Assembly (NCBI GenBank): GCA_963772955.1
Contig: CAVYZF010000008.1
Span: 51,615 to 115,614, forward strand
Direction of reading: 5' to 3'
Origin: an uncultured Acidobacteriota bacterium
Lineage (GTDB): Bacteria > Acidobacteriota > Vicinamibacteria > Vicinamibacterales > UBA2999
DNA: 64,000 nt
This document shows, in pieces, positions 12,475 through 26,499 of this stretch. Made by a program: the position numbers and the translations under genes. Under the pieces are notes generated by a model that worked only from the letters and a program-made list of their open reading frames with translations, was not told where the DNA came from and made no database searches. Each line of letters starts with the position of its first letter. The first letter of the stretch is position 1.

Positions 12475-13481
12475 TGTGTTGGCGCGCGGTCGTCGTCATC
12501 GCACTCGTGCTCTACATGAGCACGATCGTGCCGCTCGGTGCTGACCCGCTGCCGTGTCTGCGTGACGTGTCCGGCGTGACGTGGCTACGGTGGAATGACA
12601 AGCAGGACATCCTGAATCGTTGGTGTGAGAGCGTCGGTCCTCCGGTGTTCGCGACGGTCGCAGAGCGCGAGGGGCCGATTTCGCGTCTCCTCGTCCTCAG
12701 TTGGAACGTGCACGTCGGTGGAGCGGATATCGAAGGGTTGATGGCGAAGACACTCGGACCGATCTCGGGGAGTGATACCGGACTTGTCATCCTGATGCAG
12801 GAGGCGTTTCGCGCGGGGTCTGACGTGCCCGAATCACTGCCGCGCGATCTCGACGTGCCGTCGTCCATTCGTCCGCGTCGCCCCTCCCCGGATGTGGTCG
12901 CAATCGCGAAGCGACTGGGAATGTCGGTCGCCTACGTGCCGTCGATGCGCAATGGCTCGGCCTCGTCACTCGAGTCCCGCGAGGATCGCGGCAATGCCAT
13001 CCTCTCGACCGAGCCGCTGAGCGACATCCGCGCGATCGAGCTGCCGTTCGGGAAGCAGCGCCGTGTCGCCGTGGCAGCGACCATCACCCCACGCGGATCG
13101 AGGATAGGCGTGATGCGTGTGATTACGACGCACTTCGATACGAACGGCGATCGTGTGGCACAGGCGGAGGCGCTCGCCCAACGGATGGAGTCGCTCGTTG
13201 ATCTGCCGCTCCTGGTCGCCGGTGATTTGAACTCGCGTCGCGGCTTTGGAGATCGATCGGTCACGGCGATCAGTCGCCGGATCGGGATCGAGTCGTGTGG
13301 CACTCAGCGGACGCTTCACTGGCCCTGGAGGCTCGACGTGCCGTTGTTCTTCCTGATCGGCCGAGTGGACTTCATGTTCAGCACGCTCGACGCGAGCGTG
13401 ACGCGGAGCTGTCAGACGCTCTCGCACGCCTACGACTCCGACCACCTGCCGATCCTGCTCGACGTGAGCGGCCGTCAGTGA
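12471..13481 (+). CDS. Endonuclease/exonuclease/phosphatase family protein (secreted)
   Basis: SWNVH, MQEA, GNAILS, TTHF, AGDLN and SDHLP motifs. Confidence 0.88.
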   Translation: MMCWRAVVVIALVLYMSTIVPLGADPLPCLRDVSGVTWLRWNDKQDILNRWCESVGPPVFATVAEREGPISRLLVLSWNVHVGGADIEGLMAKTLGPISGSDTGLVILMQEAFRAGSDVPESLPRDLDVPSSIRPRRPSPDVVAIAKRLGMSVAYVPSMRNGSASSLESREDRGNAILSTEPLSDIRAIELPFGKQRRVAVAATITPRGSRIGVMRVITTHFDTNGDRVAQAEALAQRMESLVDLPLLVAGDLNSRRGFGDRSVTAISRRIGIESCGTQRTLHWPWRLDVPLFFLIGRVDFMFSTLDASVTRSCQTLSHAYDSDHLPILLDVSGRQ

Positions 13482-14780
13482 GCTTCGCGCGCTCTCATCT
13501 CGGCGCTGGCTGAGACCTGGGTCGCGGGCCGGAGCGGTCGCACGATTAACGTGAGCACGAACCCGATCGCCAGCAGCCCCGCCAGCACCTGCAGCGGCGT
13601 GTCGTAGATGTGAATCCTGTCCGCGCCTTCGGGCAGCGCCGCCCTGGCTCGGTTCGAAAGCTCGGTGATGATCACCGGCCCTGCCACCGCCGCCGCGCTC
13701 CACGCGGTGAGCAGCGCGCCGTGAATCGCGCCCACGTTCTCCGGTCCGAAGATGTCGGCGAGAAACGCCGGAATCGTGGCGAACCCGCCGCCGTACATCG
13801 TGAAGACGATGAAGAGCGCGATCTGGAAGAGGACCCAGTTGGCTGACGCCGCGAAGGTGGGAATCAGGAGGAACAGAAAGAACTGCGTCACGAAGAACAC
13901 GAGATACGTGTTTCGTCGTCCGATGTAGTCGGAGCCGGACGCCCAGAGGAATCGGCCTCCCGCGTTGAAGAGGCTGATGATCGAGACGACGAGCGCGGCC
14001 TGGACGGCCGTGCGCTGAAACATGTCCTGCATCATCGGCGACGCCTGGGCCAGGATGCCGATGCCCGCGGTGACGTTGATGAACAGGATGCCCCAGAGCA
14101 GATAGAACTGACGCGTCTGGATCGCCTGATTACGAGTGACGCTGACGTCCGTGATCATCGCGCTCTTCTTCGTCGGCCCTGTCCAGCCCTCCGGCCGCCA
14201 GCCTTCCGGTGGACGACGCAGCAGGCGGGCGCCGACGAGCATGATGATCAGATACGTCGCGCCGAGTGCCATCACCGTTCGCGCGACACCGATGCGGTCC
14301 ATGAAGTAGACGTTCAGATAGCCGGCGAGGAACGCGCCGCCTCCGAATCCCATGATCGCCATGCCGGTCGCCATGCCCGCGCCGATCGGGGAACCACTTC
14401 ACGAGTGTGCTGACCGGCGAGATGTAGCCGAGGCCGCAGCCGATGCCGCCGATGATGCCCATGCCGAGAAACACGAGGATCGGTTGCGACTGTGCGAGCC
14501 CGACACCACCGATGAGGAGGCCGGTGCCGAAGAACAACGCGGCGGCGGTCGCGGCGACGCGTGGGCCGCGGCGCTCGACCCAGGGACCACCGAATGCGGC
14601 GCTCAATCCGAGCAGGACGAGCGCCGTCGTGAACGTCGTGTACGGTGGGCTGAACCACCACGGCGAATCAGGGAAGAGCTGTTGGATGGGGCGGTTGAAC
14701 GTGCTCCACGCGTAGACCGATCCGATGCAGATGTGAACGAGGACGGCTCCGACCGGAATGCGCCAGCGATGCTCCGACAT
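13475..14780 (-). CDS. OFA-family (oxalate/formate antiporter-like) MFS transporter, apparent one-base insertion near 14377
   Basis: ORFs 14130-14780 (CIGSVYAWS...LVKWFPDRRG) and 13475-14374 (MATGMAIMGFGGG...YGGGFATIPA) join after removing one G. Confidence 0.85.
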
Positions 14781-14829
14781 AGCGCGTTATCCTGTCGCGG
14801 ATCGCGTCGCGCGCGCAACCGGGGAACCG

Positions 14830-17541
14830 CTACGCCGTTGCTGCCGTTGGCGCCTGGCCCTGAGGTGGATCGATGCCGAAGCGCTGGCGCTTGAGGTACA
14901 GGCCCTTACGCGACAGACCGAGCATCGCCGCCGTCTCCTCAATCCGTCCGCCACACTTCTTGAGCGCGTATTGCATCATCGTCTGCTCGATATGCCGGAC
15001 GGCAGCCGCCATCGGTTGGTCGAGACGGACGACGACTTCCGTCGGATCGAGCATGCGTTCTGACGCCGGGATCGTGCGGCGTGACGCCGCGATTTCCGGG
15101 GAGAGATGTTCGGGCATCATCACGGCGCCAGACTCGGCGAGAGCGGCGAGGCGGCGCATCTCGTTCGCCAGTTGCCGCGTGTTGCCCGGCCAGCGATAGA
15201 GCACCAGATACTCCATCGTCTCCTCGGCGAGCCGGAGGTCGCCCTTCGAGTACTCCTGCGAGAACTTCTGCAGGTAGTGATTGGCGAGTGTGGGGATCTC
15301 GACCCGTCGTTCGCGCAGGGGGGGCAGGTGCAGGCGGACGATGCTGAGGCGGTAGAAGAGGTCTTCGCGGAACCGTCCCTGGCTGACGAGCGTGTCGAGG
15401 TCGGCGTTGGTCGCGACGATCAGGCGCACGTCGACTTTGCTCGGTTGGGCCTCGCCGACCGGGTGAATCTCGTTCGATTCCAGGAATCGCAGCAGCTTTG
15501 GCTGAACCTCGAGGCTGGTGTCGCCGATCTCGTCGAGGAACAGTGTGCCGCCCGTGGCCGCACGCACAACACCTTGAAAGTTGTCGACCGCGCCGGTGAA
15601 GGCGCCGCGGCGATGACCGAACAGCTGCGAGTCGAGCATGTCCTTCGGCGTCGAGGTGCAGTTGAACGGCAGGAAGGTCGACTGCGCGCGGGTGGAGCAG
15701 GCGTGGATTGTCCGGGCGAGGACTTCCTTGCCGGTGCCTGTCTCACCTGTGATGAGGACCGTGACGTTCGTCGGTGCGATGCGCCGCGCGACGCTGAGGA
15801 TGCCCTGCATCTCCTCAGCGAGGAAGATGGCGCCACCCTGGCTCTCGATCGGATCCGCGGGCCACAGCGCCGCGCGGTTCCGCTCTTCCTCGCGCGCGTG
15901 TTCCAGCGCCACTGCGGCGCGACCGAGGCGAAGAATATTGCCCAGGAGAATTGCTTTGGCAGGGTCATCGGGGATTTGACACGAGAGCGCTATTGACTCA
16001 CCTCGATGCTCGCCCAACGGCAGTACGCAGTGGGTGAATGAATGCATCCCGGCCGGTGAGCGCGATTTCGTAACGCGCACTTCTGGTGAACAGCGCGTGG
16101 ACTGGATGGCCTCCATGAGCTCACTGCCCAGGAGGCCGGCATCATGAGACAAATCAAAGGCACTCGCGAGAGATGCGGCGAGCCTTGAGTCCAACTGCGA
16201 TTCGATCTGCGACGATGCATCGACTTCGATCGATCTCTTCGCCGAGAAGTTGTCAAACTCGTTCTCAGAGCAAGCGTTGCCTTGCTCGCGCCAGATTCTC
16301 TTTGCGCGATCGCTCGATTGCCTTTGCAACTCCGGGGACGTCTGTTGGATCTGAGAACACAGTTGCCAGAACATGCCCAAGTGCTCACGCAAAGCCCACG
16401 CGCCAAGCTCGGTCGCTCTGGCGATTGAGCGAGACGCTTCGTCAGGCTGTTCGGCTTTAACCATTGCTAACGCACGAAGCATGAGCGCTGTGCATTCGAT
16501 TTTTCGGTCTCCGACTTTTCGCGCCTCTTCGATTGCGACGTCAGCGATCCGCGAAGCGTCATGCCATTTGCGCTGCCGCAAGAGTAGGCGCGCACGCGTG
16601 ATCAAACTCGATCGCGCCGGAAACGGCATCTCGGATGGATCCCGAGTCTGCAGTCCAGTGAGCGTATCGAGCGCTCGCTCACACTCGGGCAATCGATTGG
16701 TGGCGATATACAGACGCGCGAGGCCGTCGAGCACGCTTTGGCGCACCTCGTCAATCTTGCTACCGGCTAAGCCAAGGAAGGTACGCTCGGCTCTAGCGAA
16801 TTTTCCGGTCTCTAGGTATAGGTGGCCGAGGTTATTGAGAACTGTTGACTCGGATGTGCCGGAGATCGCTCCGAAACGCTTGGCTCGATCTAGATGCTCC
16901 TCTGCGAGCGGAAGGTCAGAGTCAAAGAACTCAATGCAGAAGGCATTGATCTCGCAAAGCTGTTGGAGCCACGCGTTCGGGTGTGTTTCGAGCAGTGAGC
17001 ACGCGATTCTTAGGTGACGGCGCGCTTGTACCACGTTGCCGACCTGGGCTTCTTGACGAGCGACCGACTCATGCAGAAGGGCAGTGAGGTGAGGTTCGGC
17101 AGAGCGCATCGTCAAACGACGAACTTCCGACAAGAGAGGACCGACGATTTCTAGTGGTTGCCTCTCCGAGACGATTCTGAAAATGGCGAGTGCTGATCGT
17201 GCAGCCTGAGCAATGTCGCCGCCTTCCTTGGCAGAGTGAAGTGATCGCTGAAGGCTCTGTAACGCCTCTTCAGTGCGACCGAGATCTCGAGCGACGATCC
17301 CGAGAACCATTTCAGCCCGGGGATGGCCACGCACCCACTCCTGTCGAGCTATTACTTGACGCGCGACATGACCGGCAGACTCGAGCCTTCCAGTGCGAGC
17401 CAATGATTCAGCAATCAGGAGTTGGTGCTCATAGGACGGGAACCTCTGAATTTCCCGGAGAGCGGCCGCGCTGTCGGTACTAATTTCCTGGAACCGACCA
17501 AGACGAAACAGTGACTCGACTTCGGAGTAGCTGAGGGGCAT
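14830..17541 (-). CDS. Sigma-54 enhancer-binding protein with a long N-terminal TPR-like region
   Basis: GETGTGKE, SQLFGHRRGAFTGA, FLDEI, WPGN and a Fis-type HTH. About 430 aa of helical repeats (e.g. VLNNLGHLYLETGKFARAE). No receiver domain. Confidence 0.92.
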   Translation of the reverse strand: MPLSYSEVESLFRLGRFQEISTDSAAALREIQRFPSYEHQLLIAESLARTGRLESAGHVARQVIARQEWVRGHPRAEMVLGIVARDLGRTEEALQSLQRSLHSAKEGGDIAQAARSALAIFRIVSERQPLEIVGPLLSEVRRLTMRSAEPHLTALLHESVARQEAQVGNVVQARRHLRIACSLLETHPNAWLQQLCEINAFCIEFFDSDLPLAEEHLDRAKRFGAISGTSESTVLNNLGHLYLETGKFARAERTFLGLAGSKIDEVRQSVLDGLARLYIATNRLPECERALDTLTGLQTRDPSEMPFPARSSLITRARLLLRQRKWHDASRIADVAIEEARKVGDRKIECTALMLRALAMVKAEQPDEASRSIARATELGAWALREHLGMFWQLCSQIQQTSPELQRQSSDRAKRIWREQGNACSENEFDNFSAKRSIEVDASSQIESQLDSRLAASLASAFDLSHDAGLLGSELMEAIQSTRCSPEVRVTKSRSPAGMHSFTHCVLPLGEHRGESIALSCQIPDDPAKAILLGNILRLGRAAVALEHAREEERNRAALWPADPIESQGGAIFLAEEMQGILSVARRIAPTNVTVLITGETGTGKEVLARTIHACSTRAQSTFLPFNCTSTPKDMLDSQLFGHRRGAFTGAVDNFQGVVRAATGGTLFLDEIGDTSLEVQPKLLRFLESNEIHPVGEAQPSKVDVRLIVATNADLDTLVSQGRFREDLFYRLSIVRLHLPPLRERRVEIPTLANHYLQKFSQEYSKGDLRLAEETMEYLVLYRWPGNTRQLANEMRRLAALAESGAVMMPEHLSPEIAASRRTIPASERMLDPTEVVVRLDQPMAAAVRHIEQTMMQYALKKCGGRIEETAAMLGLSRKGLYLKRQRFGIDPPQGQAPTAATA

Positions 17542-17585
17542 AGCTTGTCTCCGTATCCGGTCAGTCGGCGTGTGAGCGGTATTTC

Positions 17586-19502
17586 CTAGCCGTGACGCTG
17601 TTGAAACGATACGAGCTTGTTGATCTTTGGTCTAACCTGAGACAAATGTTCTCCGAACGTATTTGCCAATTGCTCGAAGGCATAAACGTGTCTGTGCGTG
17701 AATACGTCTATGGCCGGAGAGTATGCCGTTAATACCCCCTGGAAGTCACCCTGCGGCCCCATCACAGGCGTGCTCACTGCACTACGCGGTCGAGGCTCCA
17801 CGACTAGCGCTGCTTGTCCGAGATCTAGTGTGGCGTCGGAGTTGCTGATCGTCTGTCGATTAGCCGCGACCCAACCTGTTACGCGCTCACCAAGACGGAC
17901 GCGAAGGCCAAGAAGGGCGCTGAACTTCTCGTCACTCACGTATTCACAAAAGAGGTCGTCCGATTCTTGCGAGTACCTGAAGAAGGCGCATGCACTTGAT
18001 GGAGTGAGTTGTCTCACCGCCTGACCGAGTCCACTCATTGCCTCAGTCAGATTGCGGGCCTCAAGAAGGTTCTGCCGTGTAGCGGCCAACAACGCGCCAT
18101 CGGCAGCGGCCGCGCGAATTTCTTCCAACGCACTTGAGCCGGAGTCCGAAGCGGCGTGAGAGACGAGCAGTGTTCGTGCTTGCTCGCCTGCTTCGTTCGC
18201 CTCATCAACGATTTCGTGGTAGGCCGAGAGAAACTGATCGACGACCAGAGGATCGTACATCGTCCCCCTGCGCTCTCGCAGTATGGCGAACGCTTCAGAG
18301 ACACTCAGTCGGGGTCGATATGGCCGGTCTGAGTTCAAGGCGTCGAAACAGTCGACGACCGCCAGAATCCTGGCGCCGAGGGGAATATCCGTTCCGGAGA
18401 TTCCATTCGGATAGCCTTGACCACTCCACTGTTCGTGATGATGTCGCACAATTGGGACGACAGGGTAGGGAAAACGAATCGACGAAAGAAGGTCAGCGCC
18501 GATGTCGGCGTGTCGCTTCATTGTTTCGAACTCGGCAGGTGTCAGTTTCCCTGGCTTGTTCAGAATGTGCTCTGGGATGGCGAGCTTCCCCATGTCATGG
18601 AGTAAGGCTGCCGCCTCGATGGCCTTCAACTGAGAGTGTTCCGTAACGCCAAGCCTCCTCGCGAGCTCGACCGCGTACACTTGCACTCGTCGGATGTGGC
18701 CGTGAGTGATTTGGTCTTTTGCGTCGACCGCCATAGCCAGTGTCTCTATCGTCGACAGATAGAGATCGTTGACCTGAGTCACGTGGCGATTTGCATCGGC
18801 GAGGCGGCCGAGCGAGGTCCGAAACGTTAGATAGGTGATGGCAAGGATCGGAAGGATGACACTTACGGCCGTCAGATCGATGCTCTGGCGATAGGTTACG
18901 AGGAGCATCGCCACGCAGGCCCCGCCGAGGTAGTTCAAGCCGACCCACGCGAAGTTTTGTTTCCAAATCTCGATCGGAGAGCTCGACTTTTCGTAGCTGA
19001 CGGCGACGGCGATGAAGAAGCTGTTGATTGCGAAATAAGTAGCCGACATGACAGCGACCGGGAAGATGATCTCCTCGAGTCGGGGTGATGAAGGCGTTTG
19101 GGGGAGGAGGAGTCGGAAGATGTGCGCAGCTACCCAGATCGCGGTCGCTGCCGCGCATATGTTGAAGGCGGCTCGAACCTTCGAATGACGTCTACTACTG
19201 GCCCAGCTGCTAAGGATGATCGCGTCGAGCGTTGTGATGATCGTCGCTGCCGATGGTCCAAACAGAAGTACTGCGGCAAAGACAAAGGCCTCGGATACCG
19301 AGATCCGAGCATTGATGGAGGGCAGCTTAATGCTGAATGAGCCGGTTAGGAACGCTAGCCCCGCCAACACCAGCCATTGTGGGCTGGGCGGTGCCACCGT
19401 CAGATCGTAGACGGATGCCGCAACAGCGAGCGTTCCTACAACAACGATAACTGTGATGTAGACCCGGGCTCCAAGTGAGAGCCGGGCAGCGCGATGCGGC
19501 AT
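17586..19502 (-). CDS. Membrane-sensor HD-GYP phosphodiesterase with a C-terminal GAF-like domain
   Basis: About 6-7 TM helices in the first 230 aa; AVDAKD, HDMGK, HHHEQWSGQGYP, DCFDAL..DRPYR; GAF-like tail (GERVTGWVAANRQ). Confidence 0.9.
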   Translation of the reverse strand: MPHRAARLSLGARVYITVIVVVGTLAVAASVYDLTVAPPSPQWLVLAGLAFLTGSFSIKLPSINARISVSEAFVFAAVLLFGPSAATIITTLDAIILSSWASSRRHSKVRAAFNICAAATAIWVAAHIFRLLLPQTPSSPRLEEIIFPVAVMSATYFAINSFFIAVAVSYEKSSSPIEIWKQNFAWVGLNYLGGACVAMLLVTYRQSIDLTAVSVILPILAITYLTFRTSLGRLADANRHVTQVNDLYLSTIETLAMAVDAKDQITHGHIRRVQVYAVELARRLGVTEHSQLKAIEAAALLHDMGKLAIPEHILNKPGKLTPAEFETMKRHADIGADLLSSIRFPYPVVPIVRHHHEQWSGQGYPNGISGTDIPLGARILAVVDCFDALNSDRPYRPRLSVSEAFAILRERRGTMYDPLVVDQFLSAYHEIVDEANEAGEQARTLLVSHAASDSGSSALEEIRAAAADGALLAATRQNLLEARNLTEAMSGLGQAVRQLTPSSACAFFRYSQESDDLFCEYVSDEKFSALLGLRVRLGERVTGWVAANRQTISNSDATLDLGQAALVVEPRPRSAVSTPVMGPQGDFQGVLTAYSPAIDVFTHRHVYAFEQLANTFGEHLSQVRPKINKLVSFQQRHG

Positions 19503-19508
19503 CGCCCC

Positions 19509-19528
19509 GCCGGGCCTCCTAGCCCGGC
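19509..19528 (-). promoter_or_regulatory. Hairpin with an AGGAG loop upstream of the HD-GYP start
   Basis: Minus strand GCCGGGC-TAGGAG-GCCCGGC, ending 6 nt before the ATG at 19502. Confidence 0.4.
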
Positions 19529-19543
19529 AGGCGCTATATCGGC

Positions 19544-19573
19544 CTATTCGCCCCAGATAATTAGTCTTCGCAT
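19544..19573 (-). CDS. 9-aa micropeptide MRRLIIWGE
   Basis: AGGAG (19585-19581), 7-nt spacer, then ATG CGA AGA CTA ATT ATC TGG GGC GAA TAG. IIWGE resembles the IVWSD repeat of the upstream peptidase. Confidence 0.65.
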   Translation of the reverse strand: MRRLIIWGE

Positions 19574-19614
19574 TTTTGCACTCCTGAAGCTAGCGGCCGA
19601 TTCTGCTTTTGCCC

Positions 19615-21321
19615 TTAGTCGGACCACACGATGCCGTCGGACCACACGATGCCGTCGGACCACACGATGCCGTCGGACCACACGATGCCGTCGGACCACA
19701 CGATGCCGTCGGACCACACGATGCCGTCGGACCACACGATGCCGTCGGACCACACGATGCCGTCGGACCACACGATGCCGTCGGACCACACGATGCCGTC
19801 GGACCATACGATGCCGTCGGACCACACGATGCCGTCAGACCATACGATGCCGTCGGACCATACGATGCCGTCGGACCACACGATGCCGTCAGACCACACG
19901 ATGCCGTCAGACCGTGCAGCAGTGCGACACGTCGAGGCCGTGCAGAATGTCATCTTCGACGGCGTGAGGTTGGACTGGGCTATCAGAGCGGACGCGGTGG
20001 TCGGAGCCAAAAACGAGGCCACCGCCAGATCGAGATTCAGCGACCCGGCTCCCGAGATCAGATAGGCCGTGGAGAGCTTGTTGCTTGAGTGTTGGAGAAG
20101 TCGGCGAACCGACTCTGTGCCCTTGACACCACTTTCCAGCAACACGCTCACAGCACCCGACACAACCGCCGCCGCCATGCTGGTGCCGGACAGCTGCAGC
20201 CGGCGACCCTCTTTCAGCGACACCACCAGCTCGGGATGCTCACGCACCAGCGTCGAGCCAGGCGCGGCCAGACCCAGAATCTTGTTCCCCGGTGCCACCA
20301 GGTCCGGCTTCACCAGGTGGTCGAACATCGTCGGGCCCTTCGAGCTGTAGCTCGCGACCTCGTCGTCGCTCCGATAGGGCGTGCCCTTGGTGTTCACCGC
20401 GCCAACAGTGATGGCGAACGGCGAGATGCCCGGCGTCGTGATACCGCCGTAGATCGGACGCCCGTCTTCGGCCTTGCCGAAGTTACCGGCGGAGGTGACG
20501 ACGGTGATGCCCGCGCGGTAGGCGCGCTCGACCGCCTGGCACAGCGGGTCGTCACGCCAGCCCTGAGTAACGGGCCCGCCGAGCGACATGTTGATGACTT
20601 TGATGTTGTAACGCTTGTGATTGGCGAGCACCCAGTCCATGGCCTCGATCACATCGCCGACCACGCCTCTGCCCTTCGCGTCCAGGACCTTCAGGCTGAT
20701 GATGTTCGCGCCCGGCGCCACGCCCTCGGCGTCGTCGAAGCGGTTGCGGCCCGCAGCGGCGATGATCCCCGCCACGTGCGTGCCATGGCCATTGAAATCA
20801 AGGCCAGGTCCGCGATCGTCGGTGAAGTCGCGCGTCGCGATGATGCGCCCCCCGAACTCGGGCATGATCGCCACGCCGGAGTCGATGACGGCCACCCCGA
20901 TGCCCTTGCCAGTCAGCGGCCCGATGCCTTTGGCCCAGCCGCCTTCGTGAACGAGATCCGCACCGATTGATTGATTGGTCACCGCCATGTGGGCCGTAAC
21001 CACGTGATTGCTCGAAAGCTGGTCGGCCGCGGGATCGTCGGCCAGTGCCGCTAACGCTCCCGCGGGGACATCAACCACCGCTCCCGTGGCCAGACGCTTC
21101 TTGATTCGCAACCCGTGACGCACCGCCAGGTCGTCCACCTGCGCAGCCGTTCCGGTGACGATGACGCTCGCCCCCTGAACGTCGCCTGTGCGCAAGCGCT
21201 CCGCGAGATCCTTGGAAAGACGTGCATGCCGCCCCTGGGCCGACGCGGCGTCGGCCGATAAGAAGAAAGCAGCACACAGGACAACGGCGAATCGAAGGTT
21301 CCGGGTGTTGAATCTGGCCAT
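19615..21321 (-). CDS. Secreted S8 subtilisin-like peptidase with a C-terminal (GIVWSD)x16 tail
   Basis: Signal peptide and propeptide; catalytic VAVIDSG, GHGTHVAG, SAGN and SGTSMA motifs; repeat tail. Confidence 0.95.
   Translation of the reverse strand: MARFNTRNLRFAVVLCAAFFLSADAASAQGRHARLSKDLAERLRTGDVQGASVIVTGTAAQVDDLAVRHGLRIKKRLATGAVVDVPAGALAALADDPAADQLSSNHVVTAHMAVTNQSIGADLVHEGGWAKGIGPLTGKGIGVAVIDSGVAIMPEFGGRIIATRDFTDDRGPGLDFNGHGTHVAGIIAAAGRNRFDDAEGVAPGANIISLKVLDAKGRGVVGDVIEAMDWVLANHKRYNIKVINMSLGGPVTQGWRDDPLCQAVERAYRAGITVVTSAGNFGKAEDGRPIYGGITTPGISPFAITVGAVNTKGTPYRSDDEVASYSSKGPTMFDHLVKPDLVAPGNKILGLAAPGSTLVREHPELVVSLKEGRRLQLSGTSMAAAVVSGAVSVLLESGVKGTESVRRLLQHSSNKLSTAYLISGAGSLNLDLAVASFLAPTTASALIAQSNLTPSKMTFCTASTCRTAARSDGIVWSDGIVWSDGIVWSDGIVWSDGIVWSDGIVWSDGIVWSDGIVWSDGIVWSDGIVWSDGIVWSDGIVWSDGIVWSDGIVWSDGIVWSDGIVWSD
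19618..19911 (-). repeat. 18-bp coding tandem repeat, 16 units plus a partial unit
   Basis: Plus-strand unit GTCGGACCACACGATGCC spans 19618-19905 (288 bp). The variants are only GTG/GTA (Val) and TCC/TCT (Ser). Confidence 0.97.
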
Positions 21322-21345
21322 GGCGGTTGCCTTCTTGTTCGGAAG

Positions 21346-21618
21346 TTACAGTCGAACTGCCGGGCTGACTCCGAGAGACGCGCCCGACGCGGAGGTCGAA
21401 AATGCCTGCGGTCTGAACCCCAGGTCGAAGAGCGACTGGACGAGAACGCGCTGGGAAACACCGAGCGTGCGGACAGTACGAAGCCGGCCGTCACGGATGC
21501 GGTTGTAGATGGTGCGACGGGAGACGCCGAGAAGCGCTGCTGCCTGATCGATGGTGACGCTGCGACCGAGTCGCGGCTCGAAACTGGATGATTCTGTGGT
21601 CAGGGGGGACTCAAACAT
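21346..21618 (-). CDS. Small excisionase-like (HTH_17/MerR-type) DNA-binding protein
   Basis: VTIDQAAALLGVSRRTIYNRIRDGRLRTVR. RBS AGGAG at 21632-21628. Confidence 0.85.
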   Translation of the reverse strand: MFESPLTTESSSFEPRLGRSVTIDQAAALLGVSRRTIYNRIRDGRLRTVRTLGVSQRVLVQSLFDLGFRPQAFSTSASGASLGVSPAVRL

Positions 21619-21647
21619 GTTTGGGAACTCCTACGGGAATTCCCTTA

Positions 21648-21665
21648 CTGCGGGTGAGGTGCCAA
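21648..21665 (-). promoter_or_regulatory. Sigma-54 (-24/-12) promoter of the HTH-peptidase operon
   Basis: TTGGCACCTCACCCGCAG: TGGCAC -24 box, GG-N10-GC spacing, about 30 nt upstream of the ATG. Confidence 0.75.
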
Positions 21666-21692
21666 TCTAAACAGGTAACGCGCTGAATCCCT

Positions 21693-21705
21693 TAAGCTAC
21701 TGATA
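21693..21705 (-). promoter_or_regulatory. Putative IHF site
   Basis: TATCAGTAGCTTA fits WATCARNNNNTTR and lies just upstream of the -24 box. Confidence 0.5.
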
Positions 21706-21871
21706 CGCGCGGGTTTCTACGGTGGAAGCTCAGCGCGGGGGGTGCGACAGATCCGCGCACCCGGGCAGGTCGTTGACTGACACTATGGTCACAGTCGAGC
21801 GAAGGCGCGATATGTCGAGGGTTGCACGACATTATTTTGATCGGCCAACAAGTTGGCCGGGGTGGCCAGGA

Positions 21872-23632
21872 TTGACGCCGCCTCGGTCGCGTCTGCCAGG
21901 CGTGCTCGTCATGGGCGTCGTGTTCGTGGGTGCACTTTTCTGGTGGCGGGGCTGCGAGCCCGAGCGCTCATCGCTCAGCGGCGGTGCATCGAAATCGACG
22001 AGCGAGCCTCGCGAGCGCGGCGGGCAGGTCGTCGCGTCCCTGAGGGCGGAGCCTCGAACCTTCAATCGACTCGTCGCCAGCGACCAGACGACCGAGGTCC
22101 TTGCGATGCTGATGCAGGGGCGATTGGTTCGCATCAACCGGTCGACGTTCGAGCTGGAGCCATGGCTCGCCGAGCGATGGGAATCGACTGAGGACGGTCG
22201 GACCCACACGTTGCACCTTCGGCAGGGCGTCGTCTGGTCGGACGGAACGCCGTTCACGTCAGCGGACGTCCTCTTCTCTCTGCGAGCCGCCTACGATCCG
22301 AACGTCAAGAGCCCGGTGGCGAGCAGCATCACGATCAGCGGGCAGCCAATCACAGCCACCGCCCCTGACACTTCCACCGTCGTCCTGAAGTACCCGTCGC
22401 CCTCCGGCCCGGGAATCCGACTGCTCGACATGCTGCCGATCATGCCGAGGCACAAGCTCGAATCGGCGCTGTCTTCCGGCACCTTCGCGCAGGCGTGGGG
22501 AACGACGACGACGCCCAGCGACCTCGTAGGCACGGGCCCGTTCACACTGCGCGAGTATCAGCCTGGACAGCGTCTCGTCTTTGATCGAAATCAACGGTAC
22601 TGGCGCAAGGCCGAGAACGGCGATGCGCTCCCGTATATCGATCGTCTTGTGCTGGAGCTCGTGCCGGATCAGAACGCGGAGCTCCTGAGGCTGCAATCGG
22701 GAGCGACCGATCTCACGCACAGCGAGCTGCGATCGGATGACTACATTCCCGTGCGCCGCGCCGAGGCTGAAGGCAAGCTGACGATGGTCGAGCTCGGCGT
22801 GTCGCCGGATGCAGACGCGTTCTGGTTCTGTTTGAAGCCGGAGAAGAAGGCGCGCGACCCACGATTCGCCTTCGTCAGCAGGCGCGAGTTCCGGCAGGCC
22901 ATCTCTCACGCCGTCGATCGCGAAGCATTCGCGCAGACGGTGTTCCTCGGCGAGGCCGTTCCGATCTGGGGTCCAATTACGCCCGGCAACCGACTGTGGT
23001 TCTCACCGAACGTGCCACGCTACCCGTTCGACGTTGCACGCTCGCGTCAGCTGCTCGCGAGCATCGGCCTCGAGGATCGCAACGGCAACGGCGTCGTGGA
23101 AGACAAGGCTGGGACCGAGGCGCGCTTCACGGTGATCACGCAACAGGGCATCGGGTACTACGAGCGCGGCGCCACGGTTCTTCGCGAACAGGCTGCGGCG
23201 GTTGGAATCGCGCTCGACGTCGTGCCGCTCGAGTTCTCCGCGATGGTCACGCGGCTGCTGGCCTGCGACTACGACGCGATCTACATGCGGCCGCTCACGA
23301 CCGATCTCGATCCGGCAGGCAACCTCGATTACTGGCTCAGTTCCGGATCGGCGCACCTGTGGAACATGCATCAGGAAAAGCCGTCGACGGATTGGGAGCA
23401 GCGGATCGATATGCTGATGGGTGAGCAATCGACAACACTCGGCCTCCAGCGCCGACGGGAAATCTTCGCAGAGGTTCAGAACGTATTCGCCGAGAATGTC
23501 CCCGTGCTGTACTTCGCGTCGCCGCGGCTGTACTACGCGCACAGCCAGCGGCTGCGCGGCGTGGTGCCTTCGATCCTGCGTCCACCCGTGCTGTGGAATG
23601 CTGACTCGTTCAGCATCGCGGGCGCTCGTTGA
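21872..23632 (+). CDS. Oligopeptide/dipeptide ABC transporter substrate-binding protein (family 5)
   Basis: EPRTFN, PWLAERW, WSDGTPFTSADV, GTGPF and FRQAISHAVDR motifs. Start uncertain; the ORF is open from 21722. Confidence 0.92.
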   Translation: MTPPRSRLPGVLVMGVVFVGALFWWRGCEPERSSLSGGASKSTSEPRERGGQVVASLRAEPRTFNRLVASDQTTEVLAMLMQGRLVRINRSTFELEPWLAERWESTEDGRTHTLHLRQGVVWSDGTPFTSADVLFSLRAAYDPNVKSPVASSITISGQPITATAPDTSTVVLKYPSPSGPGIRLLDMLPIMPRHKLESALSSGTFAQAWGTTTTPSDLVGTGPFTLREYQPGQRLVFDRNQRYWRKAENGDALPYIDRLVLELVPDQNAELLRLQSGATDLTHSELRSDDYIPVRRAEAEGKLTMVELGVSPDADAFWFCLKPEKKARDPRFAFVSRREFRQAISHAVDREAFAQTVFLGEAVPIWGPITPGNRLWFSPNVPRYPFDVARSRQLLASIGLEDRNGNGVVEDKAGTEARFTVITQQGIGYYERGATVLREQAAAVGIALDVVPLEFSAMVTRLLACDYDAIYMRPLTTDLDPAGNLDYWLSSGSAHLWNMHQEKPSTDWEQRIDMLMGEQSTTLGLQRRREIFAEVQNVFAENVPVLYFASPRLYYAHSQRLRGVVPSILRPPVLWNADSFSIAGAR

Positions 23633-24597
23633 TGGCGCGCTTCCTCGCCCGCCGGCTGCTGTTCGCTGTCATCCTCATCGCTATCACGTCCTCGGCAGCC
23701 CTGGTGCTTGCGCGGCTCGCCCCGGGCGATGTGACCTCGCAGCTCGGGCCATTCGCCTCACAGGTCGAAGTCGAGAAGACCCGGAGCCGTTTCAATCTGG
23801 ATCGAAGTCCGATCTCACAGTGGGTGCTGTGGGCCGGTCGGGCGATGCGCTTCGACCTCGGAGAGTCCTTTCTCTACAACCGACCTGTTGCGCCGCTCGT
23901 TGCTCGAGCGGCCGCGAACACTGCGCTGCTCGGAATCGTCTCGCTTCTGACCGCGACGTTGGTCGGGCTTGCACTCGGCGTCTTCACCGGAGCTCGATCG
24001 GGACCGCTGCCGCTGCTGGTTCGCAGTGTCTCGCTCGTGTGCGTCTCGCTCCCTCCGCTGGTGACATCGCTTGCGCTCGTCTTCCTCGCTGCTCGAACGG
24101 GGTGGTTGCCGGCAGGCGGAATGGTGTCGTCGGCGGCCAGCGATCCGTCGTGGTCAGCCTGGATGATCGACGTCCTCTGGCACCTGCCGTTGCCGGTGCT
24201 TGCCCTTTCGTTGCCGATGGCTGCGACGTTCGAGCGGCTTCAGTCTCAAGCGATGGCCGATGCGGTCCAGCAACCCTTCGTGCTGGCCGCCATCGCCCGT
24301 GGAGTGCCGACGAGCCGTGTCCTCCTGCGCCATGCCTGGCCTTCATCGCTGCGTCCGATCTGCGGTGTCTACGGGCTCGCCATCGGTGCTCTGCTCTCGG
24401 GCTCGTTCATCGTCGAATTCGTGACGGCGTGGCCAGGTCTGGGACGCCTGACGTTCGAAGCGCTTCGCGCACGCGACGTGTATCTCGTGGCGGCATGCGC
24501 CGCGACTGGGGCCGCGTTCCTCGCGCTCGGGACGATGACCGGCGATCTGCTGCTGGCGGCCGCAGACCCGCGCGTGAGACAGGAGTCGGTGGGATGA
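23632..24597 (+). CDS. Peptide ABC transporter permease (DppB/OppB type)
   Basis: RFLARRLL...LAPGD, DLGESF, EAA-like loop, WPGLGRL. Confidence 0.92.
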   Translation: MARFLARRLLFAVILIAITSSAALVLARLAPGDVTSQLGPFASQVEVEKTRSRFNLDRSPISQWVLWAGRAMRFDLGESFLYNRPVAPLVARAAANTALLGIVSLLTATLVGLALGVFTGARSGPLPLLVRSVSLVCVSLPPLVTSLALVFLAARTGWLPAGGMVSSAASDPSWSAWMIDVLWHLPLPVLALSLPMAATFERLQSQAMADAVQQPFVLAAIARGVPTSRVLLRHAWPSSLRPICGVYGLAIGALLSGSFIVEFVTAWPGLGRLTFEALRARDVYLVAACAATGAAFLALGTMTGDLLLAAADPRVRQESVG

Positions 24598-25568
24598 GGC
24601 GCGCGGCGTGGTCGCTGCTCCTGCTGATCGCGATGGCCGCGGCGGCTGCGCCGTGGCTCGCTCCCAATCCACCAAACCAGCGGTTCGACGATCTGCTTTA
24701 CGCTCCGCCAACACCCGTTCACCTCTTGAGCGATGGATTGCGCGCGCCGTTCATCAACCCGTGGCATGTCGTCAGTCGTCTCGAGCGTCGCTTCGAGGCG
24801 GACACGGGTGTGCACGTGTCGCTGCGATGGTTCACCGGCGGCACGCTGGTCACCGGTGATCCGGATGCGGGCGCGCCGCTTCTGCTCCTCGGCGCGGATG
24901 GTTACGGTCGCGACATCTTTTCGCGATTGCTGTACGGGGCGCGTGCAACGCTGGTGGTCGCGCTCGTCTCGGCTCTGCTCGCGACGATCTTCGGTGCCTG
25001 TGTCGGCGGCCTGGCGGCTTACGCCGGTGGCTGGCTCGACGGCGTGCTCTCTCGCGTCTCGGAGTTCGTGCTGGTGCTGCCGGCGATTTACGTGGCTCTC
25101 GTCCTGCGTGCAGTGCTTCCGCTGGTGTTGCCTCCATCGACTGTCTTCGTACTGCTGATCGGCATCTTCACACTCCTCGGCTGGCCGATCGTTGCGCGTG
25201 GTGTGCGGGCGATCGTGCTCGTCGAACGCGAGCGTGAGTATGCGGTCGCCGCGCACGCCGCAGGTGCGAGCGATGGCCGCGTGCTGTTCCGCCATCTGCT
25301 GCCGGCGTCCGCCGGCTTCCTGCAAACGCAGGCCTCGCTTCTGGTGCCCGCGTTCATGCTCGGTGAAGCGACGCTGTCGTATGTCGGCCTCGGCTTTCCG
25401 AGCACGATTCCGACGTGGGGAACGATGCTGCAGGATGCGTCGAACGTCGCGCTGCTCGGAGATGCGCCGTGGTCGCTGGCGCCCGCTGCCGCCATTTTCG
25501 TGGTGGTTCTCGGCGTCAACCTGTTCGCCCAGAGCCACGGTCGCGCGCCTGTACAATTGGAGCCATGA
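24594..25568 (+). CDS. Peptide ABC transporter permease (DppC/OppC type)
   Basis: LLGADGYGRDIFSRLLYGAR, EATLSYVGLG, PTWGTML. Confidence 0.92.
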   Translation: MRRAAWSLLLLIAMAAAAAPWLAPNPPNQRFDDLLYAPPTPVHLLSDGLRAPFINPWHVVSRLERRFEADTGVHVSLRWFTGGTLVTGDPDAGAPLLLLGADGYGRDIFSRLLYGARATLVVALVSALLATIFGACVGGLAAYAGGWLDGVLSRVSEFVLVLPAIYVALVLRAVLPLVLPPSTVFVLLIGIFTLLGWPIVARGVRAIVLVEREREYAVAAHAAGASDGRVLFRHLLPASAGFLQTQASLLVPAFMLGEATLSYVGLGFPSTIPTWGTMLQDASNVALLGDAPWSLAPAAAIFVVVLGVNLFAQSHGRAPVQLEP

Positions 25569-26488: not shown

Positions 26489-26499
26489 TCGCTCTCTCT

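What the first reader, a model, noticed from the sequence alone, without database searches (positions are those of the whole stretch)
14830..21705. Candidate peptide-signalling operon: repeat-tailed subtilase, micropeptide, membrane HD-GYP and TPR sigma-54 activator
Seen: five co-oriented genes follow a -24/-12 promoter with gaps of only 24-44 nt. They are a small HTH, a secreted S8 protease with 16 GIVWSD repeats, a micro-ORF MRRLIIWGE, a multi-TM HD-GYP-GAF protein, and an enhancer-binding protein with TPR-like repeats instead of a receiver. Established: HD-GYP domains hydrolyse c-di-GMP; TPR domains bind peptide pheromones in RRNPP regulators (Rap, NprR, PlcR); subtilases self-process. Inference: the protease carries and releases its own polyprotein of Trp-containing peptides. 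These would be sensed by the membrane HD-GYP and/or the TPR activator, which re-induces the operon. That would be a quorum-sensing-like circuit in a diderm soil bacterium. I do not know of a characterised system with this architecture.
Basis: partly seen in the sequence, partly recalled or inferred. Interest (0 to 1): 0.93.

Follow-up and report, generated by a model that had tools for sequence, protein, structure and literature searches.

The report
Repeat-tailed protease, micro-gene, c-di-GMP sensor cassette
A soil acidobacterium carries a conserved sigma-54-driven operon in which an exported protease with a tail of 16 identical Trp-containing hexapeptides is followed by a conserved, apparently coding nine-codon gene for a look-alike of that tail unit, a membrane c-di-GMP phosphodiesterase and a TPR activator, an architecture I found described in no paper I searched.

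Summary
The cassette is not a one-off. The same gene order (HTH_17, repeat-tailed S8, micro-ORF, MASE9-HD-GYP-GAF, TPR sigma-54 activator) recurs across Vicinamibacterales. A -24/-12 element and an upstream GGCCAA-N4-TTGGCC palindrome are present in 10 of 10 orthologous loci.

The main new result concerns the micro-ORF MRRLIIWGE. It is conserved in 19 genomes, with Shine-Dalgarno sequences and mostly synonymous change. A second paralogous cassette type has its own conserved 14-15-codon micro-ORF (M-R-x-R-V-T-I-I-W-L-P...) at 10 of 10 junctions. Both peptides resemble the protease tail unit.

Repeat-tailed S8 genes are repeatedly followed by MASE9 membrane sensors with different outputs: HD-GYP, GGDEF, LuxR-type HTH and (weak match) a histidine kinase. 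This places the protease on the input side of the sensor.

Untested: tail release, peptide sensing, TPR-peptide binding. Weak signs point instead to a beta-solenoid tail. The adjacent peptide-type ABC importer sits in a long vertically conserved block, so its adjacency proves little.

The parts
21843..21858 (.). Palindrome GGCCAACTTGTTGGCC, a candidate upstream activator site, 194 nt upstream of the -24/-12 element
   Evidence: It occurs once in the 7.9-Mb genome. A GGCCAA-N4-TTGGCC match (up to 2 mismatches) lies 115-267 nt upstream of the promoter element in 10 of 10 orthologous loci. Which protein binds it was not tested.
21650..21664 (-). Sigma-54 type -24/-12 promoter element TGGCACCTCACCCGC, about 30 nt upstream of the HTH start codon
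   Evidence: not above chance alone. It is conserved in position in 10 of 10 orthologous loci. rpoN is present in the genome. No sigma-70-like promoter was found in 14500-22000.
21346..21618 (-). Small HTH_17 / excisionase-family DNA-binding protein (90 aa), first gene of the operon
   Evidence: Pfam HTH_17 36.5 bits; NCBIfam excisionase domain 38.1 bits against a cut-off of 28.8. It lies upstream of S8 in 8 of 10 orthologous loci. In some metagenome gene calls it is fused to S8 (PF12728+PF00082).
19615..21321 (-). Pre-pro subtilase (S8, 568 aa): signal peptide (by eye, residues 1-28), propeptide-like region, catalytic domain with D147/H179/N280/S381 motifs, Cys-x5-Cys linker and repeat tail
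   Evidence: Pfam Peptidase_S8 154.7 bits. The DSG, HGTH and GTSM motif columns are invariant in 44 homologues. In the AF2 model the body is confident and the tail (476-568) has pLDDT 28-37.
19618..19913 (-). Tail: 16 tandem GIVWSD hexapeptide units (18-bp DNA period) that run to the stop codon
   Evidence: TRF period 18, 16.4 copies, 97% matches. Homologues carry tails of other units with hydrophobic-hydrophobic-Trp-small residues. In the own genome such arrays occur only in the 3 S8 genes.
19544..19573 (-). Micro-gene of 9 codons, MRRLIIWGE, with an AGGAG Shine-Dalgarno sequence 8 nt upstream; the stop is followed by conserved GCCGATA
   Evidence: It is present in 19 genomes. Pairwise codon differences in codons 4-9 are 222 synonymous against 114 non-synonymous, with variable sites 3/1/5 by codon position. 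The pattern occurs once in the genome. The tail-like motif is found in 0.13-0.16% of 19,318 short frames.
19506..19531 (-). GC-rich hairpin holding the AGGAGG of the HD-GYP gene, just before its start codon
   Evidence: 11-bp stem, z -1.88 for the 86-nt stretch. Comparable hairpins occur in 4 of 7 loci folded (z -1.9 to -2.5) and are weak or absent in 3. Its role is inconclusive.
17586..19502 (-). Membrane c-di-GMP phosphodiesterase candidate: MASE9 (6 hydrophobic segments, residues ~1-230), HD-GYP, GAF
   Evidence: Pfam. H269, HD302-303, H331, HHE355-357 and GYP363-365 are invariant in 14 homologues.
14830..17541 (-). Sigma-54 enhancer-binding protein: N-terminal TPR-like alpha-solenoid (1-433), small alpha/beta region (446-555), AAA+ domain with GAFTGA, HTH_8
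   Evidence: Pfam. In the AF2 model residues 1-430 are all-helical with pLDDT mostly above 90. GETGTGKE, GAFTGA and DE are invariant in 47 homologues. Fold search returns sigma-54 activator AAA+ domains.
21722..25568 (+). Divergent neighbour: family-5 (Opp/Dpp/Nik-type) ABC substrate-binding protein and two permeases. Not shown to belong to the cassette. The listed GTG start at 21722 is probably too early, because the palindrome lies inside that ORF
   Evidence: Pfam SBP_bac_5 and BPD_transp_1. It is present beside the cassette in 9 of 9 loci with sequence there, but it is part of a syntenic block reaching 31615. It is absent beside the paralogous cassettes.

Best explanation
This is an order-wide, vertically inherited signalling cassette of Vicinamibacterales (Acidobacteriota).

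Proposed working:
1. The TPR enhancer-binding protein activates the sigma-54 promoter from the upstream palindrome.
2. The transcript encodes a small HTH protein, a Sec-exported subtilase whose C-terminus is a tandem array of hydrophobic-hydrophobic-Trp hexapeptides, a translated 9-codon gene for a basic/hydrophobic peptide that mimics one tail unit, a MASE9 membrane HD-GYP phosphodiesterase, and the activator itself.
3. I read the protease as the extracytoplasmic, input-side partner of the MASE9 sensor. The Trp-bearing tail motif, tethered or cut off by the protease itself, is what the membrane-embedded MASE9 domain perceives from outside.
4. The micro-gene peptide, made in step with the sensor, supplies the same motif from the cytoplasmic face.
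5. The output is a fall in c-di-GMP.

Shown: anatomy, conservation, a coding pattern of change in the micro-gene, promoter and palindrome conservation, and recurrent S8-MASE9 linkage with varied outputs.

Inferred: export, every binding step, tail cleavage, the direction of the effect on phosphodiesterase activity, and autoregulation.
For: 1. Gene order. HTH-S8-HD-GYP-activator is conserved in G019, G024, G022, G003 and G031, and partly in G012, G013 and G021 (coordinates).

2. Promoter. The -24/-12 element and the palindrome are present in 10 of 10 orthologous loci; rpoN is present.

3. Micro-ORF of the window's type. It is conserved in 19 genomes with Shine-Dalgarno sequences and all three stop codons in use (TAG, TAA, TGA). 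Among 15 distinct DNA versions there are 222 synonymous and 114 non-synonymous pairwise codon differences, and variable sites fall 3/1/5 by codon position. G019 has two intact tandem copies, each with its own Shine-Dalgarno sequence.

4. Second micro-ORF family. It sits at 10 of 10 type-B S8/HD-GYP junctions, with 188 synonymous against 46 non-synonymous differences and variable sites 2/2/9. A third form (MGLRRKAVWSMA) overlaps the HD-GYP start in G039.

5. All three forms carry the tail-like hydrophobic-Trp motif, which only 0.13-0.16% of 19,318 short frames in this genome carry.

6. Partner sensors. In the own genome 3 of 3 repeat-tailed S8 genes are followed by an HD-GYP gene. Elsewhere the gene after S8 is MASE9-HD-GYP-GAF-GGDEF, MASE9-PAS-GGDEF, MASE9-PAS-PAS-LuxR or a hybrid histidine kinase with a weak MASE9-like match (87 residues, E 1.9e-8). 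The shared element is therefore the sensor's input domain.

7. Phylum sample. MASE9 and/or HD-GYP lies within 1.5 kb of the best S8 hit in 10 of 29 loci. Two of these, L097 and L111, rest on the unpublished genomes G085 and G182; without them the count is 8 of 27.

8. Literature. The paper that defined MASE9 argues that its ligand binds within the membrane (passages of 10.1101/2021.11.05.467447). A hydrophobic Trp peptide would fit that idea.

9. Catalytic motifs of S8, HD-GYP and the AAA+ domain are intact.
Against: - No data show export, tail cleavage, peptide release or any binding.
- Type-B HD-GYP proteins lack MASE9. They have only one N-terminal hydrophobic stretch, seen by eye and below the script's threshold.
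- Type-A cassettes have MASE9 but no micro-ORF (0 of 6 junctions), so the micro-peptide is not a general requirement.
- Of 9 repeat-tailed S8 loci picked because no HD-GYP hit lay beside them, only 3 have a MASE9-type sensor, one of them only a weak MASE9-like match.
- G034 and G030 keep S8 and the activator but have neither HD-GYP nor micro-ORF.
- Tail unit and micro-ORF do not co-vary strictly. The window has tail GIVWSD but micro-peptide ...IIWGE; G012 matches (WSE/WSE).
- Some relatives' tails pass the Pfam cut-off for a grass antifreeze beta-roll (31.1 and 34.6 bits against 30). Hexapep is annotated on 16-23% of members of two similar Atlas clusters (scores 0.82-0.84, a lead only). Trp-less tails (DGVLVS, DGHLLS) exist in other Acidobacteriota. 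All this fits a folded structural tail.
- The orthologous loci are kin, so their agreement overstates independent support.
Confidence: 0.4

Rival explanations
1. Co-regulation without a ligand relation. The S8 enzyme is a sigma-54-controlled secreted or surface-held scavenging or matrix-remodelling protease. Its tail is a folded beta-solenoid-like domain (anchor, spacer or carbohydrate/Ca-binding) that stays attached. The HD-GYP is co-expressed simply to lower c-di-GMP when the protease is made, as a dispersal or foraging programme. The micro-ORF serves mainly to couple HD-GYP translation to upstream translation.
For: - Relatives' tails pass the LbR_Ice_bind cut-off, and Hexapep appears on some similar clusters.
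- Trp-less DGVLVS-type tails exist.
- Type-A tails are internal and are followed by a conserved C-terminal extension.
- Many repeat-tailed S8 genes have no sensor beside them.
- A peptide-type ABC importer, a DHDPS-family gene and an aminotransferase lie next door.
- The micro-ORF stop lies 8-12 nt (most type-B loci) or about 40 nt (this locus) before the HD-GYP start, and a hairpin over the ribosome-binding site occurs in 4 of 7 loci.
Against: - AF2 gives no confident fold for this tail (pLDDT 28-37), and the window's own tail matches no Pfam repeat family.
- A pure coupling device would not need amino-acid-level conservation across families, and would not need a tail-like motif in three different micro-ORF forms.
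- It would not be duplicated in tandem.
- The partner that recurs is the MASE9 input domain with four different outputs, not c-di-GMP turnover as such.
Confidence: 0.3
2. RRNPP-like export-import loop. Tail peptides released outside are taken up by the adjacent family-5 ABC importer. They bind the cytoplasmic TPR domain of the activator, which then switches on the sigma-54 promoter. The micro-gene peptide is an internal agonist or antagonist of the same TPR pocket.
For: - The SBP_bac_5 protein and permeases lie divergently beside the cassette in 9 of 9 loci with sequence there and share the intergenic region with the palindrome.
- The TPR array is long and confidently helical.
- Micro-ORFs occur only in cassettes that have an activator gene.
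- In RRNPPA systems, secreted propeptides, some with several pheromone units, are matured by extracellular proteases (abstract of PMC11343458).
Against: - The ABC genes are part of a syntenic block of unrelated genes reaching 31615 in all these genomes, so adjacency may be plain vertical synteny.
- No ATPase genes accompany them, and they are absent beside the paralogous cassettes.
- The best NCBIfam matches (Opp4A, NikA, opine binders) all fall far below their cut-offs.
- The TPR profile hits generic TPR proteins; RapH scores only E 0.0035.
- Type-B activators have a different, non-TPR N-terminus of about 120 residues.
- G012 keeps the cassette without the TPR activator at the locus.
Confidence: 0.12
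3. The micro-ORF is a regulatory leader peptide. Ribosome pausing or arrest on the I-I-W codons or at the stop, dependent on Trp-tRNA or on the nascent chain, opens the hairpin over the HD-GYP ribosome-binding site. This sets expression of HD-GYP and the activator. The likeness to the tail reflects descent from the last repeat unit.
For: - It is a short ORF with its own Shine-Dalgarno sequence directly upstream of HD-GYP.
- A hairpin containing the HD-GYP AGGAGG is predicted here, with comparable hairpins in 3 other loci.
- The rare Leu codons CTA/TTA are kept in 13 of the 16 copies listed.
- The micro-ORF disappears where HD-GYP is lost.
Against: - The hairpin is weak or absent in 3 of 7 loci.
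- G019 has tandem duplicates, each with its own Shine-Dalgarno sequence.
- Three sequence-divergent micro-ORF forms all keep a tail-like motif.
- Type-A cassettes manage without one.
Confidence: 0.1

Closest known systems
RRNPP(A) peptide quorum sensing of Bacillota (Rap/NprR/PlcR/PrgX with Phr-type propeptides)
   Same: A short peptide gene sits beside a TPR regulator. Extracellular proteases mature the signal. Some propeptides hold several tandem pheromone units (abstract of PMC11343458). A peptide-type ABC importer lies nearby.
   Different: - The organism is from Acidobacteriota.
- The TPR is fused to a sigma-54 AAA+ activator, not to an HTH or phosphatase domain.
- The candidate peptide array is fused to the protease itself.
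- The micro-gene has no signal peptide.
- A membrane c-di-GMP phosphodiesterase is part of the unit.
- There is no specific sequence likeness to RRNPP receptors.
Myxococcus xanthus A-signal (recalled from memory: extracellular proteases generate amino acids and peptides that act as a density signal feeding a sigma-54-dependent response; one search gave only two listings, not read)
   Same: A diderm soil bacterium, a secreted protease as signal generator, hydrophobic or aromatic amino acids and peptides as the signal, and a sigma-54 activator in the response.
   Different: The A-signal substrate is bulk protein, not a dedicated repeat array. No MASE9/HD-GYP partner and no micro-gene are known there.
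LapD-LapG c-di-GMP-controlled periplasmic proteolysis (recalled from memory)
   Same: A periplasmic protease is functionally paired with an inner-membrane c-di-GMP signalling protein.
   Different: LapG is a cysteine protease and LapD a degenerate GGDEF-EAL receptor with a periplasmic domain. Signalling runs inside-out and the substrate is a separate giant adhesin. None of these families is present here.
Minimal peptide genes: biarylitide bytA (10.1101/2020.07.21.214643, listing and start of abstract) and microcin C mccA (recalled)
   Same: Genes of 5-9 codons with their own ribosome-binding site that give a functional peptide.
   Different: Those peptides are modified by an adjacent enzyme (P450; MccB). 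No modifying enzyme is in this cassette.
MASE9-HD-GYP(-GAF-GGDEF) proteins as catalogued in 10.1101/2021.11.05.467447 (passages)
   Same: The same domain architecture. The ligand is unknown and proposed to bind within the membrane.
   Different: That survey does not contain the words protease, peptidase or Acidobacteri- (0 occurrences each). The linkage to repeat-tailed subtilases and micro-ORFs is not described there.

Membership tests
Subtilase (MEROPS S8 / Pfam PF00082) | Asp-His-Ser triad in DSG / HGTH / GTSM motifs, plus the oxyanion Asn | tested here: met
   PF00082 154.7 bits. D147, H179, N280 and S381 are invariant in 44 homologues. No NCBIfam equivalog passes its cut-off.
HD-GYP c-di-GMP phosphodiesterase | HD metal ligands plus the HHExxDGxGYP motif | tested here: met
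   HD_5 144.4 bits. H269, H302-D303, H331, H355-H356-E357 and G363-Y364-P365 are invariant. Enzyme activity was not tested.
MASE9 membrane sensor domain | Pfam PF20972 match above the gathering score, in a multi-pass N-terminal region | tested here: met
   31.5 bits against 24.3; six hydrophobic segments in residues 5-228.
Bacterial sigma-54 enhancer-binding protein | AAA+ domain with Walker A/B and the GAFTGA loop, plus a C-terminal HTH_8 | tested here: met
   PF00158 210.6 bits and HTH_8 35.8 bits. GETGTGKE, GAFTGA and DE are invariant. Foldseek hits to ZraR, NtrC1, DmpR and FleQ AAA+ domains.
Sigma-54 promoter | GG at -24 and GC at -12 with 10-nt spacing, at a conserved position upstream of the first gene | tested here: met
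   21650-21664; present in 10 of 10 orthologous loci. Transcription start was not tested.
RRNPP quorum-sensing receptors | TPR receptor specifically related to Rap/NprR/PlcR/PrgX, fused to an HTH or phosphatase domain | tested here: not met
   The TPR profile against PDB gives generic TPR hits; RapH E 0.0035, RapJ 0.06. The fusion partner is AAA+.
RRNPP quorum-sensing receptors | Adjacent propeptide gene with an export signal | tested here: not met
   The micro-ORF is 9 codons with no room for a signal peptide. The only exported candidate is the S8 tail.
RRNPP quorum-sensing receptors | Peptide import by an oligopeptide permease and binding to the TPR | tested here: inconclusive
   An SBP_bac_5 transporter is adjacent, but it lies within a long syntenic block. 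Binding is not testable here.
Beta-solenoid repeat domains (LbR_Ice_bind PF21300 / Hexapep PF00132) | Pfam match above the cut-off, or a confident solenoid model of the tail | tested here: not met
   The window's tail has no Pfam repeat hit at E up to 0.01 and AF2 pLDDT of 28-37. Relatives P0029 and P0053 pass PF21300 (31.1 and 34.6 against 30). Hexapep appears on 16-23% of two Atlas clusters. The fold of this tail stays open.
Leader-peptide translational attenuation | Short ORF whose translation controls a downstream hairpin that masks the next gene's ribosome-binding site | tested here: inconclusive
   A hairpin is present here and in 3 other loci (z -1.9 to -2.5), and is weak or absent in 3 of 7.
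Minimal RiPP clusters (biarylitide / microcin C type) | Tiny precursor gene next to its modifying enzyme | tested here: not met
   No P450, MccB-like or other tailoring enzyme lies among the cassette genes or immediate neighbours.

The most novel reading that the evidence does not exclude
Acidobacteriota use a self-contained peptide signalling system of a new kind.
- An exported subtilase carries its own tandem array of pheromone units and cuts them off after Trp.
- The hydrophobic Trp hexapeptides are sensed inside the membrane by MASE9 domains. This would give MASE9 its first ligand class.
- A 9-codon gene, among the shortest genes proposed to encode a functional peptide, supplies an intracellular mimic that sets or blocks the producer's own response.
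- The several paralogous cassettes per genome, each with its own unit sequence, act as orthogonal channels wired to c-di-GMP, phosphorelay or transcription outputs.
Probability: 0.2. Interest if true: 0.95.

Novelty: new variant of a known kind. Interest (0 to 1): 0.78.

Why it matters
- MASE9 is a widespread sensor domain with no known ligand. A conserved genetic partner gives a concrete, testable candidate.
- The two conserved micro-genes (9 and 14-15 codons) are the kind of gene that annotation pipelines tend to miss. They show clear comparative signs of coding and would be among the shortest genes proposed to encode a functional peptide.
- Vicinamibacterales are soil bacteria whose cell-cell signalling and c-di-GMP control I know of no work on (from memory). 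A protease that carries its own signal array would be a new way to build a peptide signal in a diderm.
- Even under the conservative reading, the cassette defines a large, unnamed family of repeat-tailed subtilases under sigma-54 control.

Tried and rejected
- Complex prediction of MASE9 (residues 1-240, alignment A3) with S8 (30-568, alignment A1) gave no verdict: score 0.00, controls not run. It counts neither for nor against binding.
- Foldseek of the full activator model returned only AAA+ sigma-54 activators.
- I considered whether the ABC importer adjacency shows a functional link. I rejected it as evidence because synteny extends over unrelated genes to 31615 in all loci.
- I considered whether the micro-ORF is a read-through or frameshift extension of S8. 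It lies in another frame, and stops separate it from S8 in the S8 frame.
- I considered whether the conserved micro-ORF region is a second sigma-54 or sigma-70 promoter. By eye there is no GG-N10-GC in register, and the scan found 0 sigma-70-like sites.
- Terminator-like sites in the operon are at chance level (4 against 4.9 expected) and all lie inside genes.
- Literature searches found nothing on this architecture. Searches: MASE9; HD-GYP+subtilisin+Acidobacteria (0 papers); enhancer-binding protein+tetratricopeptide+sigma-54+peptide (3 unrelated papers); Vicinamibacter/subtilisin/c-di-GMP; the motif strings NIVWG, NILWG, IIWGE and TIIWLP (no relevant hit). Supplementary files were not opened.
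- Public runs are contigs only. RNA-library contigs X19 and X20 match 19520-19588 with unlike flanks, and one X20 contig spans 19453-19574. This shows only that the micro-ORF region is highly conserved in environmental sequence found in RNA libraries. It does not show transcription of this locus. Parts without cover mean nothing.

Full report
**What is there**

On the minus strand of the window lie five co-oriented reading frames with gaps of 24, 41, 41 and 44 nt.
- A 90-aa HTH_17/excisionase-type protein (21346-21618).
- A 568-aa subtilase (19615-21321).
- The 9-codon frame MRRLIIWGE (19544-19573).
- A 638-aa MASE9-HD-GYP-GAF protein (17586-19502).
- A 903-aa protein with an N-terminal TPR region, a sigma-54 AAA+ domain and HTH_8 (14830-17541).

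Pfam supports each assignment. The subtilase ends in 16 GIVWSD units encoded by an 18-bp tandem array (19618-19913; 16.4 copies, 97% matches). The catalytic motifs of the subtilase, the HD-GYP domain and the AAA+ domain fall in columns that are invariant in alignments of 44, 14 and 47 homologues. Names attached to NCBI relatives place the organism in Vicinamibacterales.

**Promoter**

The -24/-12 match at 21650-21664 has two mismatches to the canonical pattern. Alone it is not above chance: 50 matches in the window against 60 expected. In all 10 orthologous loci that I fetched, however, an element of the type TGGCAC-N5-C(C/T)GC lies at the same place upstream of the first gene. A palindrome GGCCAA-N4-TTGGCC lies 115-267 nt further upstream. 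In the window that palindrome is at 21843-21858 and occurs only once in the 7.9-Mb genome.

The genome has rpoN. No sigma-70-like promoter was found in 14500-22000, and the terminator-like sites are at chance level. Sigma-54-like elements also precede S8 in 3 of 5 type-A paralogous cassettes and in two cassettes with a short activator. Sigma-54/activator control is thus well supported. Which protein binds the palindrome is not known.

**Conservation of the cassette**

With the window's proteins as queries, the S8, HD-GYP and activator hits in 40 relatives fall side by side on the same contigs in many genomes. I fetched 20 such places, chosen because the hit lists showed adjacency, so they are not an unbiased sample.
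- Ten are orthologous loci. HTH is present in 8, HD-GYP in 8 and the TPR activator in 9. G034 and G030 lack HD-GYP, and G012 lacks the activator.
- The right flank, from the family-5 ABC binding protein to about 31615, is syntenic in all of them, including three other families of the order. The left flank is conserved only in the closest relative.

The cassette is therefore old and vertically inherited at this site. It also follows that the neighbouring peptide-type ABC importer cannot be claimed as part of the system on adjacency alone.

**Tails**

Homologous subtilases carry tails of other units, with periods from 6 to about 11:
- AENILWGN, DTVVWGE, DGIIWAE, DTLVWG, RIVWGD and GIVWSE (G012), among orthologues and close homologues of this gene.
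- NIVWGS and DDNIVWST in the two paralogues of this genome.

Across the phylum, 39 of 151 sampled genomes have an S8 hit at E up to 1e-60. Their tails include DSIIWG, GVIWGD, DGILWA, SALWSD, DGFLWS and TALWSD, and also Trp-less DGVLVS and DGHLLS. In the own genome, arrays of at least four such units occur only in the three S8 genes.

The structure of the tail is open.
- AF2 models the enzyme body with confidence but gives the tail pLDDT 28-37.
- The window's tail hits no Pfam repeat family.
- Two relatives pass the cut-off of a grass antifreeze beta-roll family.
- Two similar Atlas clusters carry Hexapep on 16-23% of their members, at scores that are leads only.

**The micro-ORF**

This is the main new result. 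The frame between S8 and HD-GYP is conserved. The forms found are:
- MRRLIIWGE (window, G003, G020)
- MSRLIIWGD (G005)
- MQRLIIWGE, twice in tandem plus a degenerate third copy (G019)
- MRTLIIWGE, MRALIIWGE, MRPLIIWGE, MRKLIIWGE
- MCSLIIWSE, MRRLIIWSE
- MARLIVWGE
- MRTVIIWGD, MRKVIIWGD
- MRKLIIWED, MSKLIIWGE
- ...RTLIIWGE (G155, start unclear)
- The 8-codon MTPIIVWS and MTPIVVWG in two other families

That makes 19 genomes.

In the copies whose upstream sequence was printed, a purine-rich Shine-Dalgarno-like stretch precedes the start in nearly all. All three stop codons are used. The stop is usually followed by (G/A)CCGATA. Among 15 distinct DNA versions, variable sites in codons 4-9 fall 3/1/5 by codon position. 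Pairwise codon differences are 222 synonymous against 114 non-synonymous. Within the genus, the only orthologous locus without it (G001) has lost S8 and the N-terminal part of HD-GYP.

A second cassette type has its own conserved micro-ORF at 10 of 10 junctions. Its gene order is a short activator without receiver, an S8 of about 740 aa with DDNIVWST units, and HD-GYP-GAF-GGDEF without MASE9. The micro-ORF reads M-(R/K)-(K/T)-R-(V/I)-T-I-I-W-L-P-...-R. Variable sites fall 2/2/9, with 188 synonymous against 46 non-synonymous differences. In most loci its stop lies 8-12 nt before the HD-GYP start. A third form, MGLRRKAVWSMA, overlaps the HD-GYP start in G039.

Type-A cassettes (S8 then MASE9-HD-GYP-GAF-GGDEF, no activator beside them) have none (0 of 6 junctions). 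S8-activator loci without HD-GYP also have none.

Each pattern occurs once in the own genome. Only 26-31 of 19,318 short ATG-to-stop frames in this genome (0.13-0.16%) contain the tail-like motif. The likeness of the micro-peptides to the tail unit is thus unlikely to be chance, though common descent from a terminal repeat could explain its origin. I conclude that these are real, selected coding micro-genes. What the peptides do is not shown.

**What the protease is paired with**

In the own genome all three repeat-tailed S8 genes are followed by an HD-GYP gene; one S8 is broken by a TAA.

I then fetched 9 repeat-tailed S8 loci from four well-assembled relatives precisely because no HD-GYP hit lay beside them.
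- Three are followed by another sensor. These are MASE9-PAS-GGDEF (after a GNAT gene), MASE9-PAS-PAS-LuxR (blastp 1.6e-22 to the window's MASE9), and a hybrid histidine kinase with a MASE9-like N-terminus (1.9e-8).
- The other six have unrelated or broken neighbours.

In the phylum sample, MASE9 and/or HD-GYP lies within 1.5 kb of the best S8 hit in 10 of 29 loci, or 8 of 27 without the unpublished G085 and G182.

The recurrent partner is thus the membrane input domain, with four kinds of output. That argues that the protease acts on the input side of the sensor rather than being a target of c-di-GMP. The paper that named MASE9 reports no ligand and argues for binding within the membrane. It does not contain the words protease, peptidase or Acidobacteri-.

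**Mechanism**

My best reading (0.4) has these parts.
1. The activator drives the operon from the sigma-54 promoter.
2. The exported subtilase presents or releases its Trp-bearing hydrophobic units to the MASE9 domain.
3. The micro-gene peptide, with a basic N-terminus and a hydrophobic Trp core, is made together with the sensor and supplies the same motif from inside.
4. The HD-GYP lowers c-di-GMP.

Each tail unit places two hydrophobic residues and Trp ahead of a small residue. From general knowledge of subtilisin specificity this is a plausible cleavage site after Trp, but that is recall, not a test.

The rivals are:
- A structural beta-solenoid tail with mere co-regulation, and a coupling micro-ORF (0.3).
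- An RRNPP-like import loop through the ABC transporter to the TPR domain (0.12).
- A leader-peptide switch (0.1).

On the last, hairpins between the micro-ORF and the HD-GYP start are predicted in 4 of 7 loci and are weak or absent in 3.

On the TPR domain, it is a confident helical solenoid. By profile search it is only generically TPR-like, so RRNPP membership is not supported.

**Comparison and novelty**

No NCBIfam equivalog passes its cut-off for any of the four large proteins. My literature searches found no description of this architecture.

The nearest known systems are:
- RRNPP(A) peptide signalling with protease-matured, sometimes tandem, propeptides (abstract of PMC11343458).
- The Myxococcus A-signal (recalled).
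- LapD/LapG (recalled).
- Minimal peptide genes such as bytA.

This cassette shares parts with each and is a member of none. I file it as a new variant of known kinds (peptide- or protease-linked second-messenger signalling), with a 0.2 chance that it is a new kind of self-carried peptide signal.

**Limits**

- All loci are kin, and several samples were chosen by the feature counted; I have said where.
- No expression, processing or binding data exist.
- RNA-library contigs only show that 19520-19588 is highly conserved in environmental sequence.
- The complex prediction gave no verdict.
- Supplements of the papers were not seen.

Noticed in passing
window 13475-14780 (-): The MFS transporter downstream of the activator is split into two overlapping frames (13475-14374 and 14130-14780). 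This suggests a frameshift, a pseudogene or an assembly error.
   Followed up: no
window 16000-19500: G+C falls to 0.56-0.575 across the TPR part of the activator and the HD-GYP gene, against about 0.65 in the S8 gene, the AAA+ part and the flanks. Unexplained.
   Followed up: no
L036 = G000:C10:148500-158500: The type-B paralogous cassette of the same genome has its S8 gene broken by a TAA (two frames, 4156-5580 and 5366-6355). Its micro-ORF MRKRVTIIWLPADVR, the HD-GYP-GAF-GGDEF gene and the short activator are intact.
   Followed up: partly
L025 (G019:C134) 4967-5226: There are two intact tandem copies of the micro-ORF (MQRLIIWGE), each with its own Shine-Dalgarno sequence, plus a third, frame-disrupted copy before the HD-GYP gene.
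   Followed up: partly
L064 (G022:C7) 4210-4938 and L065 (G022:C8) 6159-6824: A GNAT acetyltransferase (Acetyltransf_3) gene follows directly after two other repeat-tailed S8 genes. In L064 it sits between S8 and a MASE9-PAS-GGDEF sensor. It may act on peptides.
   Followed up: no
L087 (G001:C221:6400-7600): This is a degenerate orthologous locus. The HTH gene runs almost directly into an HD-GYP fragment that starts near residue 235. S8, the micro-ORF and MASE9 have been lost.
   Followed up: partly
window 21722-21910: The ORF listed for the ABC binding protein starts at GTG 21722, yet the conserved palindrome (21843-21858) lies inside it. The real start is probably the ATG before MGVVFVG near 21911, which leaves a divergent intergenic region of about 290 nt.
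   Followed up: partly
L100, L102, L109 (G179, G169, G098): S8 tails in other Acidobacteriota are built of Trp-less hexapeptides (DGVLVS, DGVIVS, DGHLLS). L100 has a MASE9-like gene downstream.
   Followed up: no
window 19520-19588: In two soil RNA-library runs and one DNA run, contigs of other organisms match just this 69-nt stretch (the micro-ORF with its flanks) at 90% or more, then run on unlike (loose ends at 19520 and 19588).
   Followed up: partly
window 25415-27666 (+): A DHDPS-family gene and a class-V aminotransferase follow the two ABC permeases. No ABC ATPase genes are present in this transporter cluster.
   Followed up: no
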